Assembly: GCA_043799545.1 (NCBI GenBank)
Contig: JAZDNO010000019.1
Location: 72,551-136,550 of the forward strand
Reading direction: 5' to 3'
Length of the DNA stretch: 64,000 nucleotides
Origin: Methanobacteriota archaeon
GTDB taxonomy: Archaea > Thermoplasmatota > Thermoplasmata > SG8-5 > DAIRED01
A program made the translations under genes and the position numbers. Below, piece after piece: positions 16,623 to 21,440 of this stretch (position 1 is its first letter; every line of letters begins with the position of its first letter). A model generated the notes under the pieces. That model searched no databases. It was not told the DNA's origin and was given only the letters and a program-made list of their open reading frames with translations.

Positions 16623-17846
16623 ATGGAAATTGAATTCCTCGGTGGCGCCAGCAAGGTCGGCAGCCTCGGCATGCTGATGAAGACCGGCGGCACGAAGCTC
16701 CTCATAGACTACGGCATAACGCCCACCGACCCGCCAGGGTATCCGGTGCGCACGACCGCTGTGGACGCGGTCCTGCTCACGCACGCCCACGTCGACCATT
16801 CGGGTATGATCCCCTGGTACGCGGGGAAATACGACAGCCCGATTCACGCCTCCCCTCCGACGATAGACGTTGGCCTGATGCTTATGGAAGACACAATCAA
16901 GGTCACCCAGGCGGAAGGATATCCCCTGCCGTACGAGCGTGGCGACGTCCGCGCGGCCCAGCGCAACTTCGACGAGACGGATGTGGGGGAAACGTTCCAT
17001 GTCGGCGACGTAGAAATCGAGACATTTTCCGCCGGCCACATCCCTGGGGCGATGATGTACATGGTCAAGTCCCACGACTCAGTTTTGTTCACGGGGGACA
17101 TCAACACCATCGACACGCGCCTGGTCGGGCGCTGCGACATGCCCCAGTGCGACACGCTGATACTGGAGAGCACCTACGCCGGCCGGCACCACCCCGACCG
17201 TCTGAAGACGGAATACGCTTTCCAGCGCAAGGTGGACGAGGTAGTCGCCAGGGGCGGAGTCGCCGTCGTTCCAGCGTTCGCCGTCGGGCGCACGCAGGAG
17301 GCTGCGATGGTGCTCGCGCAGAGCAGGCACCTCATCTGGCTCGACGGGATGGGCAAGCGCGTTAACGAGGCCTACCTCGACCACCCGAAGTACCTGGCAT
17401 CAGCGAAGAAGCTTCGCAGGGCCATGAACGTGTGCCAGGCTGTAAGGAACACCGGGGCGCGAAGCCAGGCAGCGCATGGGGACGTGATAATCACGACCAG
17501 CGGCATGCTGGACGGCGGGCCGGCGCTTAGCTACATAGACAAGCTGAGGCACGACCCGAAGAACGCAATCCTTCTCACTGGCTATCAGGTCGAAGGGACC
17601 AACGGCCGAAGGCTCATGGACACGGGCAAGATGGTCTTCGACGGCGAAGAGAAGGAAATCAACTGCGAGGTCTCTTTCTTCGACTTCTCGGCCCATGCGG
17701 ACCACAAGCAGCTCCTGCGCTTCGTGGACAAGTGCGAGCCCACGAAGGTTGTATTGATGCACGGGGACCAGCGCGAGGCGCTGGCAAAGGACTTGGAAGG
17801 GTACAACGTGGAGATGCCGAACGAGGGAGAGAAGATAGAAATCTGA
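16623..17846 (+). CDS. MBL/beta-CASP ribonuclease (aCPSF2-like, no KH domains)
   Basis: HAHVDHSG, AGHIPG, FTGD, LILESTYA, FAVGRTQE, TSGML.GGP, FSAHAD. Confidence 0.9.
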   Translation: MEIEFLGGASKVGSLGMLMKTGGTKLLIDYGITPTDPPGYPVRTTAVDAVLLTHAHVDHSGMIPWYAGKYDSPIHASPPTIDVGLMLMEDTIKVTQAEGYPLPYERGDVRAAQRNFDETDVGETFHVGDVEIETFSAGHIPGAMMYMVKSHDSVLFTGDINTIDTRLVGRCDMPQCDTLILESTYAGRHHPDRLKTEYAFQRKVDEVVARGGVAVVPAFAVGRTQEAAMVLAQSRHLIWLDGMGKRVNEAYLDHPKYLASAKKLRRAMNVCQAVRNTGARSQAAHGDVIITTSGMLDGGPALSYIDKLRHDPKNAILLTGYQVEGTNGRRLMDTGKMVFDGEEKEINCEVSFFDFSAHADHKQLLRFVDKCEPTKVVLMHGDQREALAKDLEGYNVEMPNEGEKIEI

Positions 17847-17965
17847 ACGCTACCGATAGTTTCCCATTTCGGTAAATTATAAGTATTGAACGGCCAATTG
17901 CCATCAGGGATTTCGATTGAAATGTGGACGAGAGAAGTCCGGTTGTTCAAAAGGAGCCTGGTATC

Positions 17966-18841
17966 GTGTTTGATTGGCTCATCAACATCCCCGGGCCGAC
18001 ATTCCTGGTGTACCTCCTCATTTTTATAATATCCTTAACTGTGGTAGGCGGTTATTTATGTTACTTTGACCCAACTGGCAAATTGGACGAGCCTGGGATT
18101 ACTGAGCTTGAAAAATACCATATAGCGGCATTGCGCGGAGGAGTCAAGGAAGTAATTGTCACGGCTGCATTCAGTCTCTGGCATAAGGGGCTTATCAATC
18201 TGGACAAAGATGAAATCGAACGTAACGAAAAAAATGTTCCCATACTAGATCCCATCGAAAAAGAGGTATATGATGAGCTCTCAACCCCGAAAACAGCGTC
18301 CTCATTGGTGTACAGCATCGGCTTAGGAGTTAGGTTGGAAGAATACATGGAATCCATCAACAAGAACCTGGAAAGGCTGCATTTAAAACCTGGTAAAAGT
18401 GCTGCATCTAGAGACTGGCTGATACTCTTTTCTATTCTCACGCCAATCCTCGTCATCGGTGGATTAAAGTTGTATTTTGGGATTGTGCGAGAGAAACCTG
18501 TCATGTTTTTAATAATTCTTCTGTGCATGTCCGCCATACTCATCGTGGTTTTGTTAAATCCATTGAAGTTCCAAACAACACTGGGAAGGCGTTATCTGAA
18601 TTCGTTGAAAGATCACTACAATTGCATCAAAGATCGCGCTCCAACGGATATTCTCAGATACAATATGGACCCGGCTATCGGAATGGCAGTATTCGGCGTG
18701 ACTGGGCTATATCTTGTAGCGTCTTTGAACACATTCACAAGCAAGTTCACGCCGCAGACGTCAAGCGGGGGATTCGGCTGCGGGGGCGCTGGTTGTGGCG
18801 GCGGTGGATGCGGCGGAGGTTGCGGGGGGTGCGGCGGATGA
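17966..18841 (+). CDS. TIGR04222-domain membrane protein with Gly/Cys low-complexity C-terminal tail
   Basis: IPGPTFLVYL N-terminus, YHIAALRGG, IGGLKLYFGIVREKPVMFL, TTLGRRYL, AVFG, tail GCGGAGCGGGGCGGGCGGCGG*. GTG start at 17966 is preferred (AAGGAG upstream); 17924 is an alternative. Confidence 0.85.
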   Translation: MFDWLINIPGPTFLVYLLIFIISLTVVGGYLCYFDPTGKLDEPGITELEKYHIAALRGGVKEVIVTAAFSLWHKGLINLDKDEIERNEKNVPILDPIEKEVYDELSTPKTASSLVYSIGLGVRLEEYMESINKNLERLHLKPGKSAASRDWLILFSILTPILVIGGLKLYFGIVREKPVMFLIILLCMSAILIVVLLNPLKFQTTLGRRYLNSLKDHYNCIKDRAPTDILRYNMDPAIGMAVFGVTGLYLVASLNTFTSKFTPQTSSGGFGCGGAGCGGGGCGGGCGGCGG

Positions 18842-19953
18842 AGAAAAACCGAACTGGTTGCAATAATCCGCGCGAGTCACCGTTGATATTCCAATGGCAT
18901 ATCACCGACAAGTGCAACCTCAATTGCCGTCATTGCTACCAAGATAATGGGCCTGTGCCAGATCCGGAATTCCCGATGTTGGAGAGGACATTCAGACAAT
19001 ATCTGGATTTGCTGGATAAAATCAAAGAAACGGGACGCTGGAAGCCGCGGGGGCACATCAACATAACCGGTGGAGAACCATTGCTCCGAGATGATTTGTT
19101 CAAGCTATTGAACTTGATATCGGAAGCCGACCGACGTGTATCCGTAGGGATACTCACGAATGGAACACTGGTCGACGATAAAATGGCTAAAAATATCGGC
19201 GACACGGGCGTCAAATTCGTCCAGGTTAGCATGGAAGGGGGGCGGAAAACCCACGATTGCGTCAGGGGGCAAGGCAATTTCAATCTCGTAATCGAGGGAA
19301 TAGAACGCCTGCAAGGTGCCGGTATTTCAACCTACGTTTCGTTCACCGCCCACCGTCTGAATTACATGGAATTTGGTGACGTAGCGGGGACATGTCGTAA
19401 ATTGGGCGTGGATTGTCTTTGGGCCGACCGTCTTATACCTTGCGGACGGGGCAGGGAATTGGCGAACAGCACTCTTTCGCCTGCACAGACGAGGACATTT
19501 TTCCAGAACATGAAGCGCGCAAGGTACAATTTGTCGCGTGGATGGGGCAAGAAAAAAACCGAGATACGTATGAAGCGCTCCCTTCAATTCCTCATCGGCG
19601 GTGGAATGCCGTACCGATGCTCCGCAGGAGACCGCCTGATAACTGTGATGCCTGATGGAACGATGTATCCATGCCGGAGGATGCCCATTTCCGTCGGAAA
19701 TGTAGCCGTTGAGTCCATATCAGACACATACTACAACAATGAATTCATGCAGGCGTTGCGCGATCCGGCCAGGGTGCCGGACGGTTGTGAGAATTGCCTT
19801 CACGCGAGCGCATGCCACGGAGGCTCCAGATGTCTGGCTAACGTCGTAAACGGTTCGCCGTTTACAAGGGACCCGGGATGCTGGGATGCTCATTTTAACA
19901 GCTTGGAAAGTCCTGTCTTTGATGTTGGGGACGTGAGGTGTGAAGTATGGTAG
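18838..19953 (+). CDS. Radical SAM/SPASM-domain protein
   Basis: CNLNCRHC (CxxxCxxC), TGGEPLL, ILTNG, QVSMEG; SPASM cysteines CSAG, YPC, CENC, C.GGSRC, DPGC; ATG overlaps the upstream TGA. Confidence 0.93.
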   Translation: MKKNRTGCNNPRESPLIFQWHITDKCNLNCRHCYQDNGPVPDPEFPMLERTFRQYLDLLDKIKETGRWKPRGHINITGGEPLLRDDLFKLLNLISEADRRVSVGILTNGTLVDDKMAKNIGDTGVKFVQVSMEGGRKTHDCVRGQGNFNLVIEGIERLQGAGISTYVSFTAHRLNYMEFGDVAGTCRKLGVDCLWADRLIPCGRGRELANSTLSPAQTRTFFQNMKRARYNLSRGWGKKKTEIRMKRSLQFLIGGGMPYRCSAGDRLITVMPDGTMYPCRRMPISVGNVAVESISDTYYNNEFMQALRDPARVPDGCENCLHASACHGGSRCLANVVNGSPFTRDPGCWDAHFNSLESPVFDVGDVRCEVW

Positions 19954-20687
19954 ACAATTTGCCGTTATCGAGCACGAATGTGGGACCGGAAAGCGTAAGA
20001 GCACTGGAACACTTTGTAGCAGATGTGTTGAAGGAGTTCCAAACTGACATATCATCCATCATTTTGTACGGCAGCGGTGCGCGTGCTGATTTCAGGGAGG
20101 GGAAAAGTGACCTCAACCTCCTTGTCGTATTTTCTAGTCTGGACATGGCGCGAATGAGCCGGTTCATACCTCTGCATGACAAATATCTTCGAAATCGAAT
20201 TGTACCACTGGCATTGACGAAGAAGGATCTCGTTGACACGGCCCATGTGTTTCCACTCAAGTTTCTATCGTTTAAAGAGGCAAATGTCGTCCTATCTGGC
20301 ATCGATGTGTTGAAAGAGATAGATGTGGACAATTCGCATGTCAGGTTTAGGTGCAAGCAGGAACTTCAAAACCTGTTGATGAGGTTGAGATACCACTACA
20401 TATCCAACCAAGGGCGGGGGCTGACGAACATGATGTCTCGCACATCGACAAATTTCATCGAATCCCTTCGTGTCGTGATATTGTTGGAAACGGGCAACAA
20501 ACCCGACAGAGTCGGGATAGTCGAGGCTGCCAGTTCAATCGGTATCGATGGAGGGGCTTTGAAGAAAGTGCTCGACATTAAGGGAAGGGATGTTGCCTTG
20601 CCAAACACAGAGTCCAGAGTGATTTTCGAGAGATATCTCCGAATTGTGGAGCAATTGTTAGCAAAGGTGGACAACCTTAAAGAATGA
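19947..20687 (+). CDS. Nucleotidyltransferase-fold protein
   Basis: IILYGSGARADF...SDLNLLVV (GS...DxN; second acidic residue replaced), followed by a helical domain; GAGGTG RBS; overlaps the rSAM stop. Confidence 0.8.
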   Translation: MVDNLPLSSTNVGPESVRALEHFVADVLKEFQTDISSIILYGSGARADFREGKSDLNLLVVFSSLDMARMSRFIPLHDKYLRNRIVPLALTKKDLVDTAHVFPLKFLSFKEANVVLSGIDVLKEIDVDNSHVRFRCKQELQNLLMRLRYHYISNQGRGLTNMMSRTSTNFIESLRVVILLETGNKPDRVGIVEAASSIGIDGGALKKVLDIKGRDVALPNTESRVIFERYLRIVEQLLAKVDNLKE

Positions 20688-20747
20688 ATATAGCAAGAAT
20701 ATTTTTGTAAATAAATTGAAATCTGAAAAGGTTTTTGGAATTTCAGC

Positions 20748-21440
20748 TTACTTTATTCCCCTGTCGTGCGCACCCACGCTCGGCCTGGCCTTCTCCGCGC
20801 CCTTGCCCTTTCTGCGGAGGCCGCGGCCCTTCTTTCCGGCGCTGGTCAGTCCGCGGTTCGCGCGTCCGCTCTGCTCATTGCCGCATATCCAGTTTATCTT
20901 CGGGTCCGCCCGTATGACCGGGTGGTCCGGGTCCACCAAGATGACCTCGAAGTACATGTTCTTCCCGTCCTGGGCGAGCCAGTAAGAGTTGAGAACCTCG
21001 AGGTTCGGGTACCTGCGGCCGACGCGCTCCTCGGCGATGCGCTTGAGGCTCTTGCCCGAAGTGATCTTGTTCAGGCCGCGGCGCTTCGGCTTGCGCCCGC
21101 CGATATGCTGGCGCTTCCTCAAAGGCCCGCGCCTGACCCGGCCCCTCACCACAACGTATCCCTGTTTGGCCTTGTAGCCGAGGGAGCGCGCCCTGTCCAG
21201 GCGGGTCGGGTGCTCGATGCGCACGAACGCCGGCTCGCGGCGCCACGCAATCATCCTGTGCCAGTTCAGGTCCTTCACGAACGAGTTGGCGGGGACCTTC
21301 CAGGCGTCCTTTATGTGAGAATACATGCTCTTCGCCGGCACGCCAGTGTGGAGCACAGTTGGCGGGGCCATGACGATTTCCTCTTCTGCCGGCGCTTCCT
21401 TCTTCTTCGGTCTGGCCTTCTTGGCCTTGTCTTCTGCCAT
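20748..21440 (-). CDS. rpl15e: 50S ribosomal protein eL15 with N-terminal extension
   Basis: [57 protein letters not shown]; GAGGTGA RBS. Confidence 0.97.

What the first reader, a model, noticed from the sequence alone, without database searches (positions are those of the whole stretch)
17966..19953. Radical SAM/SPASM enzyme translationally coupled to a TIGR04222 membrane protein with a RiPP-like Gly/Cys tail
Seen: the membrane protein ends ...SSGGFGCGGAGCGGGGCGGGCGGCGG* (5 Cys spaced x4, x4, x3, x2). Its TGA overlaps the ATG (ATGA, 18838-18841) of a CxxxCxxC + SPASM protein. Established: TIGR04222 proteins carry Gly/Cys or Ser tails that resemble ribosomal peptide precursors, but modification of those tails has not been shown to my knowledge. 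SPASM rSAMs install thioether crosslinks (sactionine/ranthionine) on Cys-rich substrates, including on a protein (QhpD on QhpC). Inference: this is an archaeal system in which a membrane-tethered protein tail, rather than a free peptide, is crosslinked or otherwise matured, giving either a modified membrane protein or a released peptide. This is the strongest candidate for an undescribed system in the window.
Basis: partly seen in the sequence, partly recalled or inferred. Interest (0 to 1): 0.88.

Follow-up and report, generated by a model that had tools for sequence, protein, structure and literature searches.

The report
Radical-SAM enzyme for Cys-tailed membrane protein
A horizontally inserted three-gene block in a Thermoplasmatota archaeon pairs a membrane protein ending in a glycine/cysteine tail with its own radical-SAM iron-sulfur enzyme; the same enzyme-plus-tail pairing recurs across many anaerobic bacteria, so the enzyme very probably modifies the tail's cysteines, and I found no paper describing this.

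Summary
Window 17966-18841 encodes a TIGR04222 membrane protein ending in a Gly/Cys tail. Its TGA overlaps the ATG (18838) of a radical SAM/SPASM enzyme, and a third, nucleotidyltransferase-fold gene overlaps that enzyme's stop.

The pairing is conserved. The enzyme belongs to a well-supported clade of 25 sequences, and 22 have a Gly/Ser/Cys-tailed protein next door. The body of the partner protein varies (TIGR04222, DUF2207, TPM, zinc ribbon). Only the tail is constant, which marks it as the likely substrate.

In ten Bacillota/Bacteroidota genomes, Cys-bearing tails sat next to the enzyme in 9 of 10 cases and Cys-free tails in 0 of 7. As a caveat, 8 Pseudomonadota genomes carry similar Cys tails with no such enzyme.

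In this archaeon the block is a 2.88-kb low-GC insertion. A close relative has the empty site, and none of 60 relatives has orthologues.

The chemistry is unproven. I favour Cys-to-thiooxazole conversion, as SbtM does, which would make this an anaerobic counterpart of the MNIO enzymes proposed to modify TIGR04222 tails. Thioether crosslinking is nearly as likely.

No curated family or paper found covers the system. Earlier agents of this scan noted the same pairing on at least 34 other genomes.

The parts
17848..20727 (.). 2,880-bp inserted low-GC island carrying the three genes
   Evidence: GC is 42-53% here, against 60-65% in the flanks and 58% genome-wide. A relative whose L15e is 89% identical has the beta-CASP stop and the L15e stop only 60 nt apart, with no cassette (L155). 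No orthologue of any of the three genes was found in 60 relatives.
17835..17847 (+). Left copy of a 13-nt direct repeat (ATAGAAATCTGAA), which is the last codons and stop of the beta-CASP gene
   Evidence: the repeat finder family D4, spacing 2880 nt. Repeats of this size occur by chance in 3 kb. What is suggestive is that the two copies fall on both island borders.
20715..20727 (+). Right copy of the direct repeat (ATTGAAATCTGAA)
   Evidence: It lies 20 nt before the L15e stop codon at 20748.
17966..18841 (+). TIGR04222 / DUF2207_C-type membrane protein (291 aa, P0001)
   Evidence: TIGR04222 scores 98.6 bits against a cut-off of 43. DUF2207_C scores 29.3 bits. The AF2 model has pLDDT 80 and three firm TM helices at 10-33, 144-174 and 180-197.
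18758..18838 (+). Disordered Gly/Cys tail (residues 265-291, five Cys, each preceded by Gly); the proposed substrate
   Evidence: pLDDT is below 50 from residue 265. The tail is identical in the L003 orthologue, with only synonymous changes. The terminal GCGGCG motif is near-invariant.
18838..19953 (+). Radical SAM/SPASM enzyme (371 aa, P0002), clade A, with no RRE domain
   Evidence: PF04055 and PF13186 match. No NCBIfam equivalog reaches its cut-off; the best are TIGR04053 at 153/395, ACGX rSAM at 148/400 and SbtM at 136/350. The protein sits in a 25-member clade with SH-aLRT 100.
18913..18936 (+). CxxxCxxC radical-SAM cluster motif (C26, C30, C33)
   Evidence: Invariant in 16 homologues.
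19618..19881 (+). SPASM region with seven invariant Cys (C261, C279, C317, C320, C326, C332, C348)
   Evidence: Alignment A1. Seven rather than eight ligands suggests an open site on one auxiliary cluster; this is an inference.
19947..20687 (+). ANT/KNTase-fold protein (246 aa, P0003) with a degenerate catalytic motif; its start overlaps the rSAM stop by 7 nt
   Evidence: AF2 pLDDT is 91. Foldseek matches AAD(9) 6xz0 at E 5e-7, plus AadA and ANT(4'). The usual DxD is [D/N]-x-N, with Asn57 near-invariant. Distant family members sit directly in front of a tail-less TIGR04222 protein.

Best explanation
The block is a dedicated protein-maturation cassette. P0001 is a three-TM membrane protein. Its disordered Gly/Cys C-terminal tail is the substrate of the co-translated radical SAM/SPASM enzyme P0002. 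The enzyme has no RRE/leader-binding domain, so it must recognise the tail itself, probably by binding a tail cysteine at the open site of an auxiliary 4Fe-4S cluster. It then cleaves SAM and uses the 5'-deoxyadenosyl radical to oxidise tail residues. The most likely product is a 5-thiooxazole made from Cys and the carbonyl of the preceding Gly/Ser, at -4 Da per site. That is the reaction shown for the SPASM enzyme SbtM and, with O2, for bufferin-type MNIO enzymes. On this reading the cassette is the oxygen-independent counterpart of the MNIO + TIGR04222 pairing, and it yields a membrane-tethered, thiol-rich, probably metal-binding appendage. The modified protein stays anchored and no peptide is released. 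P0003 is an accessory partner of the TIGR04222 membrane domain, not of the enzyme.

Shown: gene anatomy, conservation of the enzyme-tail pairing, the insertion, and the lack of membership in any curated family. Inferred: the enzyme-substrate relation, the chemistry, the topology and the biological role.
For: (1) All three genes are translationally coupled by overlaps.
(2) The rSAM lies in a 25-row clade (SH-aLRT 100), and 22 of the 25 have an adjacent Gly/Ser/Cys-tailed protein. Of the three exceptions, one is cut off by the contig start (L010), one has a truncated second SPASM gene at the contig start upstream (L025), and one has a Cys-tailed TPM protein elsewhere in the same genome (L027/L114).
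(3) The partner N-terminal domains differ: TIGR04222, full DUF2207, DUF2207-N, TPM and zinc ribbon. Only the tail is shared.
(4) Within-genome control in ten genomes: 10 Cys-bearing tails, 9 of them next to the rSAM; 7 Cys-free Gly/Ser tails, none next to it.
(5) In a sample of 401 Pseudomonadota genomes, all 6 clade-A rSAMs found were linked to Cys-tailed TIGR04222 genes. Five were adjacent and one was split across contig ends.
(6) A same-genus relative (G001) lacks this cassette but carries a different tail protein, ending ...GGGVCGGCGGCGGCGGCGG, that overlaps a different rSAM clade. This looks like non-orthologous replacement.
(7) The tail is under purifying selection: 3 of 3 changes are synonymous.
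(8) P0001 is the only Gly/Cys-tailed ORF in the genome, and the cassette has no intergenic room for a hidden precursor.
(9) Hydropathy and the positive-inside rule give N-out/C-in with three firm TM helices, placing the tail in the cytoplasm where an rSAM works.
(10) On the chemistry: 98% of tail Cys are preceded by Gly or Ser. SbtM converts Gly-Cys/Sec to thio(seleno)oxazole (PMC9204691). TIGR04222 tails are proposed substrates of bufferin-like MNIOs (PMC12452194). SbtM is among the top three NCBIfam similarities of P0002. The own genome has no MNIO.
Against: No biochemical data exist for any member of this system. Eight of 14 Cys-tailed TIGR04222 genes in the Pseudomonadota sample lie in genomes with no clade-A rSAM, and none is adjacent to an MNIO. 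The Cys tail therefore works, or is handled, without this enzyme in some lineages. A weakly hydrophobic fourth segment (236-254) could be a fourth TM helix, which would put the tail outside the cell, as the MNIO paper predicts for its examples. Modification would then have to precede insertion. All similarities to SbtM, ACGX and other models fall far below their cut-offs, so the chemistry rests on analogy. The closest solved structures (SkfB, PqqE, CteB, anSME) point equally to thioether or formylglycine chemistry.
Confidence: 0.7

Rival explanations
1. Same enzyme-substrate pair but different chemistry. The rSAM installs sactionine-type thioether bridges (Cys S to the alpha-carbon of a neighbouring Gly/Ser/Ala), turning the floppy tail into a rigid, protease-resistant ladder.
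For: Most characterised SPASM enzymes acting on Cys-rich substrates make thioethers. The best PDB sequence matches include SkfB (86.6 bits) and CteB (70.2 bits). Tails carry 2-9 Cys with short regular spacings, 53% of them CxxC. QhpD is a precedent for thioether formation on a protein (general knowledge, not tested here).
Against: The protein has no RRE domain, which most sacti- and ranthipeptide synthases have. It scores far below the PapB, StsB and AlbA cut-offs. The only acceptors available are Gly, Ser, Ala and Asp. The parallel with MNIO partners of the same substrate family is not explained by thioether chemistry, which MNIOs are not known to perform.
Confidence: 0.3
2. The two proteins work together, but the tail is not the substrate. 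The Cys/Gly tail binds a metal or an Fe-S cluster, or docks the enzyme at the membrane. The rSAM then acts on another molecule, such as a lipid, a cofactor or another protein.
For: CxxC-rich Gly tails look like metal-binding sites. Similar Cys tails exist without any clade-A rSAM, so the tail has a function of its own. No binding could be shown in silico.
Against: The partners share only the tail and not the membrane body. Cys-free paralogue tails are never paired with the enzyme. No other conserved gene that could supply a substrate accompanies the pair. The neighbouring rSAM clades pair with short Cys-containing peptides.
Confidence: 0.12
3. The tail is a membrane-tethered RiPP precursor. 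After modification it is cleaved off and released as a free Cys/Gly-rich peptide.
For: The tail resembles a RiPP core peptide.
Against: No peptidase or exporter is conserved with the pair in the archaeal or bacterial loci examined. The tail follows directly after conserved helices, with no recognisable cleavage motif.
Confidence: 0.07
4. The rSAM is a cofactor-biosynthesis enzyme of the AhbD/NirJ type and its adjacency to the membrane protein is incidental.
For: AhbD and NirJ models give 120-130 bits. The wider SPASM group sampled contains many AhbD/NirJ-like sequences.
Against: The scores are a quarter of the cut-offs. The AhbD/NirJ-like sequences fall on the other side of a branch with 95% support. 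The adjacency is conserved across phyla and across two domains. No heme or siroheme genes lie nearby.
Confidence: 0.03

Closest known systems
MNIO (DUF692, PF05114) enzymes paired with TIGR04222 membrane proteins (Microb Genom 2025, PMC12452194)
   Same: The substrate family is the same: TIGR04222 membrane proteins with unstructured Ser/Gly-rich, Cys-containing C-terminal tails, proposed but not shown to be modified by the neighbouring enzyme. That paper also reports that many TIGR04222 genes have no MNIO nearby.
   Different: The partner here is an unrelated, oxygen-sensitive radical SAM/SPASM enzyme. The own genome has no MNIO. The paper does not mention SPASM or DUF2207, and 'radical SAM' occurs only in two reference titles. 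The rSAM clade also serves DUF2207, TPM and zinc-ribbon proteins with the same kind of tail.
SbtM (TIGR04082), the thio(seleno)oxazole-forming radical SAM/SPASM maturase (PMC9204691)
   Same: It is a SPASM rSAM acting on a Gly-Cys/Sec motif by H-abstraction from the Cys beta-carbon, and it gives the same heterocycle class as bufferin MNIOs. It is among the top three NCBIfam similarities of P0002.
   Different: The score is 136 bits against a cut-off of 350. Only SbtM profile positions 201-498 align, so its roughly 200-residue N-terminal part is absent here. SbtM's substrate is a free peptide, not a membrane protein tail.
CteB/SCIFF, SkfB, AlbA and PapB sacti-/ranthipeptide synthases
   Same: They are SPASM/Twitch rSAMs that act on Cys-rich ribosomal substrates. 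CteB binds a substrate Cys on an auxiliary cluster with an open site, which the 7-Cys SPASM region here also suggests.
   Different: Those enzymes carry an N-terminal RRE and act on short leader-bearing peptides. P0002 has only about 25 residues before its CxxxCxxC, and all these family cut-offs are missed by a factor of 3 or more.
anSME and QhpD (SPASM enzymes that modify proteins rather than peptides)
   Same: They are precedents for a SPASM rSAM maturing a folded or large protein at Cys residues, through formylglycine (anSME) or thioether bridges (QhpD).
   Different: The tail lacks the sulfatase C/S-x-P/A-x-R motif. anSME matches only weakly (68 bits in the PDB search). QhpD was not among the best 25 NCBIfam hits.
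ACGX-repeat system rSAM (TIGR04340)
   Same: It is an uncharacterised SPASM rSAM family that, from memory, Haft linked to small peptides with Cys-Gly-rich repeats. It is the second-best NCBIfam similarity and aligns over its full length (positions 4-339 of 341).
   Different: The score is 148 bits against a cut-off of 400, so P0002 is not a member. The tail alone (residues 255-291) matched no NCBIfam model at E up to 0.1. Here the repeat sits on a membrane protein.

Membership tests
TIGR04222 domain-containing membrane protein | HMM score above the curated cut-off (43 bits) | tested here: met
   98.6 bits, profile positions 28-228 of 229.
TIGR04222 domain-containing membrane protein | Low-complexity Gly/Ser/Cys C-terminal region after the hydrophobic domain | tested here: met
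   Residues 265-291 are Gly/Cys-only and disordered in the AF2 model.
Radical SAM superfamily (PF04055) | CxxxCxxC cluster motif and Pfam score above gathering | tested here: met
   C26/C30/C33 are invariant in 16 homologues. PF04055 scores 83.9 bits against 29.5.
SPASM subfamily (PF13186 / TIGR04085) | C-terminal Cys-rich domain for two auxiliary 4Fe-4S clusters | tested here: met
   PF13186 scores 32.7 bits against 21.5. Seven Cys are invariant, fitting C..GxxxxC..CxxCx5Cx5C..C. Cluster content itself cannot be tested here.
Sacti-/ranthipeptide synthases (AlbA, StsB, PapB, CteB type) | N-terminal RRE (PqqD-like) leader-binding domain and a family HMM over its cut-off | tested here: not met
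   No RRE domain in Pfam. PapB scores 107/340 and StsB 73/625.
SbtM thio(seleno)oxazole maturase (TIGR04082) | Equivalog HMM at or above 350 bits, full-length architecture of about 516 positions | tested here: not met
   136 bits; only profile positions 201-498 align.
ACGX-system rSAM (TIGR04340) | HMM at or above 400 bits | tested here: not met
   147.9 bits.
AhbD / NirJ heme-pathway rSAMs (TIGR04545, TIGR04051/54/55) | Equivalog HMM at or above 500-650 bits; clustering with bona fide members | tested here: not met
   118-130 bits. AhbD/NirJ-like sequences (for example L060 at 445 bits and L070 at 489 bits) lie across a branch with 95% support.
Anaerobic sulfatase-maturing enzyme | Substrate motif C/S-x-P/A-x-R in the target; TIGR03942 at or above 349 bits | tested here: not met
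   The tail contains only G, C, A, S and F. TIGR03942 is not among the 25 best families. The PDB match to 4k37 is 68 bits.
MNIO + TIGR04222 system | PF05114 enzyme encoded next to the TIGR04222 gene | tested here: not met
   No PF05114 match in the 94%-complete own genome, while the control genome Caulobacter matched.
Active Pol-beta-type nucleotidyltransferases (for P0003) | hG[GS] motif plus two catalytic carboxylates (DxD/E) | tested here: inconclusive
   The GS motif and the ANT/KNTase two-domain fold are present. The carboxylate pair reads D-L-N here and [D/N]-x-N across the family. Activity cannot be judged from sequence.

The most novel reading that the evidence does not exclude
Clade-A radical SAM enzymes are the anaerobic, isofunctional replacement of MNIO enzymes. 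They convert the (Gly/Ser)-Cys units of membrane-protein tails into thiooxazoles. The result is a membrane-anchored metal-chelating appendage, a tethered 'bufferin', on several unrelated membrane-protein families (TIGR04222, DUF2207, TPM). This would give a first functional handle on the very widespread Gly-rich tails of these families. The ANT-fold pseudo-nucleotidyltransferase would be a further subunit of the TIGR04222 module.
Probability: 0.27. Interest if true: 0.85.

Novelty: new variant of a known kind. Interest (0 to 1): 0.72.

Why it matters
Radical SAM/SPASM maturases are known for free peptides (RiPPs) and for a few soluble enzymes. Here an uncurated clade has, as its constant partner, the C-terminal tail of integral membrane proteins from several unrelated families. 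More than 100 sequence clusters at 43-51% identity turned up in one search, and the clade spans many bacterial phyla and archaea.

If confirmed, this would add a new substrate class to rSAM chemistry. It would provide an oxygen-independent counterpart to the still-untested MNIO + TIGR04222 hypothesis. It would also give a first experimental entry into DUF2207, TIGR04222 and TPM proteins, whose Gly-rich tails are common and unexplained.

The cassette is small (two core genes) and directly testable by anaerobic co-expression and mass spectrometry. For this archaeon it is also a clean case of gene gain: an occupied site and an empty site are both available, and a same-genus relative carries a non-orthologous version of the same pairing.

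Tried and rejected
(1) Complex prediction of the rSAM (alignment A1) with tail residues 250-291, SAM and three 4Fe-4S clusters gave a score of 0.03 against a mark of 0.32. The verdict was 'no answer', and the controls were not run. This is not used as evidence either way.

(2) A Foldseek search of the P0001 model against the PDB found nothing at E <= 0.001. The best match was GOLPH3/Vps74 at E 0.4 and TM 0.25-0.29, which I treat as noise.

(3) The tail alone (residues 255-291) matched no NCBIfam model at E <= 0.1, so no known Cys-repeat peptide family such as ACGX or SCIFF claims it.

(4) hhalign of the TIGR04222 alignment against the G001 tail protein produced only an 18-column alignment with no meaning. 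Pfam and NCBIfam also found nothing for that protein.

(6) Literature searches for TIGR04222, DUF2207 + radical SAM, ACGX + radical SAM, and SPASM + membrane protein + cysteine-rich found no description of the pairing. The library lacks most subscription journals.

(7) I looked for MNIO adjacency in my own sample. None of 17 Pseudomonadota TIGR04222 genes lies next to a PF05114 gene. The MNIO link therefore rests on the paper, which covers mostly Actinomycetota, and not on my data.

(8) I considered a hidden small precursor ORF and rejected it. The three genes overlap, and the 118-nt leader has only a roughly 35-codon out-of-frame ORF with few Cys and no Gly/Cys repeat.

(9) I considered P0003 as part of the rSAM system and rejected that. 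It is absent from the bacterial cassettes, and its distant relatives accompany tail-less TIGR04222 proteins without any rSAM.
Full report
**1. The observation**

The + strand between 17.9 and 20.7 kb carries three overlapping genes.

- **P0001** (17966-18841; GTG start preceded by GGAG at 17953-17956) is a 291-aa protein ending ...SSGGFGCGGAGCGGGGCGGGCGGCGG.
- **P0002**: the P0001 TGA (18839-18841) overlaps the ATG (18838) of this 371-aa protein, which has CxxxCxxC at C26/C30/C33.
- **P0003**: the stop of P0002 overlaps, by 7 nt, the ATG (19947) of this 246-aa protein.

NCBIfam places P0001 in TIGR04222 (98.6 bits against a cut-off of 43). Pfam gives Radical_SAM plus SPASM for P0002.

**2. Is the pairing conserved?**

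A word-indexed search with P0002 found one 78%-identical protein and then more than 100 clusters at 43-51% identity. The named ones come from Smithella, Nitrospirota, Desulfobacterales, Thermodesulfovibrionales and Bacillota. The 78% homologue sits in the same five-gene synteny. Two bacterial homologues examined at random both have, directly upstream, a TIGR04222 protein with a tail ending ...CGGCGD or ...CGGCGGGGD.

A scan of one genome per species with an alignment of the enzyme returned 80 loci. In a maximum-likelihood tree of 92 enzymes, the window's protein falls in a 25-row clade with SH-aLRT 100, which I call clade A. Of these 25 rows, 22 have a neighbouring protein whose last 25 residues are Gly/Ser/Cys-rich with at least 2 Cys.

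The three exceptions are:
- L010, where the contig starts at the enzyme gene.
- L025, where the contig starts inside a second SPASM gene just upstream.
- L027, whose genome has a Cys-tailed TPM protein on another contig (L114).

Outside clade A only one locus, L094, has such a neighbour.

**3. What is the common denominator?**

The partner proteins are not one family:
- TIGR04222/DUF2207_C in Pseudomonadota, Nitrospirota, Thermodesulfobacteriota and archaea.
- Full-length DUF2207 in Muribaculaceae and Bacilli.
- DUF2207 N-domain only in Lachnospiraceae and Ruminococcus.
- TPM domain in Ruminococcus and Acutalibacteraceae.
- A zinc ribbon in an Oscillospiraceae genome.

Only the tail is shared. 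Across 26 tails there are 2-9 Cys. The residue before Cys is Gly in 66% and Ser in 32% of cases, and 53% of spacings are CxxC. The enzyme has no RRE domain. This pattern is what one expects if the tail itself is recognised and modified.

**4. Does adjacency track with cysteine?**

In ten Bacillota/Bacteroidota genomes I collected all TPM or DUF2207 paralogues. Nearly all have low-complexity Gly/Ser tails. Ten tails contain Cys (2-7 each), and nine of these lie next to the clade-A enzyme; the tenth is L114. Seven tails have no Cys, and none lies next to the enzyme. Related genomes are not independent, so I attach no p-value.

**5. A limit to the rule**

In an even sample of 401 Pseudomonadota genomes, 17 TIGR04222 genes passed the cut-off.
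- Fourteen of the 16 assessable tails contain Cys.
- Six are linked to a clade-A enzyme. Five are adjacent, and one is split across contig ends.
- Eight lie in genomes with no clade-A enzyme at E <= 1e-20.
- None of the 17 is next to an MNIO gene, although MNIO occurs in 133 of the 401 genomes.

So enzyme implies Cys tail, but Cys tail does not imply enzyme. The tail must have a use of its own, or be handled otherwise, in some presumably aerobic lineages.

**6. Where the enzyme sits among SPASM enzymes**

No NCBIfam equivalog is met. The scores are TIGR04053 153/395, ACGX-system 148/400, SbtM 136/350 and AhbD 130/500.

In the tree, sequences that score close to the AhbD/NirJ cut-offs (L060 at 445/500, L070 at 489/650) lie across a branch with 95% support. 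The nearest outgroup on the clade-A side is best matched by the ACGX and SbtM models.

The closest solved structures by sequence are SkfB, PqqE, CteB and anSME.

The SPASM region has seven invariant Cys and no conserved eighth. By analogy with CteB, this suggests an auxiliary cluster with an open site for a substrate thiolate. This is an inference.

**7. The cassette in this genome is an insertion**

The host is a Thermoplasmatota archaeon. The nearest named relatives of its L15e are Thermoplasmata and Methanomassiliicoccales at 66-70% identity.

- None of the three genes has an orthologue in 60 relatives of the same class.
- The block has 42-53% GC, against 60-65% in the flanks.
- A metagenomic relative whose L15e is 89% identical has the beta-CASP stop and the L15e stop 60 nt apart, which is an empty site. 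A relative at 92% has the occupied site.
- The insert is bracketed by a 13-nt direct repeat (17835-17847 and 20715-20727, spacing 2880 nt). The left copy is the end of the beta-CASP gene.

Repeats of that size arise by chance in 3 kb, so the repeat is suggestive only. No integrase is present.

**8. A second version in the same genus**

G001, a same-genus relative at 84% completeness, lacks the cassette. Instead it has a 465-496-aa membrane protein with no Pfam or NCBIfam match that ends ...GGGVCGGCGGCGGCGGCGG. This gene overlaps the start of a different SPASM enzyme, 33% identical to P0002, which I call clade B. Clade B groups with an Asgard sequence.

The sister group of clade B accompanies 32-46-aa peptides ending G-[K/R]-x-C-[H/L/F]-x. 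Two enzyme clades have thus independently come to sit beside Cys/Gly tails, and their neighbours are peptide maturases.

**9. The third gene**

P0003 folds with pLDDT 91 into the two-domain ANT/KNTase architecture. The best match is AAD(9) 6xz0 at E 5e-7. In this rare family (25 proteins) the catalytic DxD is [D/N]-x-N.

It is absent from the bacterial cassettes but present in a second archaeal one, L009. Distant members lie, with overlap, in front of a tail-less TIGR04222 protein and near LemA or TPM genes. I read it as a partner of the TIGR04222 membrane domain, carried along with the cassette.

**10. Topology**

Hydropathy and the AF2 model (pLDDT 80) give three firm TM helices. They are followed by K/R-rich helices (205-261) and the disordered tail. 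The positive-inside rule then puts the tail in the cytoplasm, where an rSAM could reach it. A weak fourth hydrophobic segment (236-254) leaves this open.

**11. Mechanism and comparison**

The 2025 MNIO survey (PMC12452194) proposes TIGR04222 tails as substrates of bufferin-like MNIOs. It notes that a third of genomes with TIGR04222 lack MNIO. It does not mention SPASM or DUF2207, and 'radical SAM' appears only in two reference titles.

SbtM, a SPASM enzyme, converts Gly-Cys/Sec into thio(seleno)oxazole, the same product class as bufferin MNIOs (PMC9204691; PMC12538549). The reaction I know to be shared by the two enzyme classes on Cys is thiooxazole formation, so I favour it (about 0.35-0.4 of the total). 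Thioether bridging is close behind (about 0.3).

The general claim, that the tail is the enzyme's substrate and the product stays membrane-anchored, I put at 0.7.

**12. Prior notes of this scan**

Earlier agents reported the same pairing on at least 34 other genomes, and first readers flagged this same stretch. I used these notes as leads only.

Noticed in passing
L029:3756-3932, L032:211-387, L035:3631-3801, L036:2094-2231, L043:1165-1290, L054:856-1041, L056:1387-1662, L064:3867-3995: A separate SPASM rSAM clade in Nitrospirota, Chloroflexota and Thermodesulfobacteriota. In each locus a 32-46-aa peptide sits directly in front of the enzyme. The peptides share a conserved E-x-x-F/Y-W leader and a C-terminus of the form G-[K/R]-x-C-[H/L/F]-x. 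Neither enzyme nor peptide reaches any NCBIfam cut-off. This looks like an undescribed single-Cys RiPP family.
   Followed up: partly
L094:1477-4013 (- strand; genome G001, same genus as the window): A membrane protein of 465-496 aa with no Pfam or NCBIfam match, ending ...GGGVCGGCGGCGGCGGCGG. It overlaps the start of a different SPASM rSAM (33% identity to P0002) that groups with an Asgard sequence (L041). This is a non-orthologous version of the same enzyme-tail pairing.
   Followed up: partly
L105:5001-6598; L104:3248-6327: Distant relatives of P0003 (ANT-fold, [D/N]-x-N motif) lie, with overlap, in front of a tail-less TIGR04222 protein (P0151, 61 bits), or next to LemA and TPM-domain genes. 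This suggests an NTase-like/TIGR04222/LemA/TPM membrane module that is independent of any rSAM.
   Followed up: partly
L133, L135, L138 (Pseudomonadota genomes G434, G386, G320): Cys-tailed TIGR04222 genes (...GGCGGGCGGCGG) with neither an rSAM nor an MNIO nearby. Instead they lie beside a conserved gene of about 186 aa (motif Y-[EA]-I-G-P-P) and what looks like rimM, judged by eye from the translation. What handles or uses these tails is unexplained.
   Followed up: no
L007:1010-2965: Upstream of the bacterial cassette lies a second rSAM/SPASM gene. It is preceded by a 243-aa protein built of proline-rich repeats (KFPP..., FPRDKFPPNTEHEPMHKLPKFPP). This may be another maturase-substrate pair.
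   Followed up: no
L155:6694-6753: Empty insertion site in a close relative. The beta-CASP and L15e genes converge with 60 nt between their stops, containing a GC-rich hairpin (cccggacgg/ccgtccggg-like). In the window this spacer is replaced by the 2.88-kb island.
   Followed up: yes
window:21578-22552 (-): A 324-aa protein with a signal peptide and four C-terminal TM helices. Its orthologue in L155 carries a weak Pfam Neur_chan_memb hit, so it may be an archaeal pentameric ligand-gated channel homologue.
   Followed up: no
L025:182-2175: In a Roseburia genome the clade-A rSAM is directly preceded by, and overlaps, a second SPASM-type enzyme that is cut by the contig start. This tandem two-maturase variant has no tail gene in the available sequence.
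   Followed up: no
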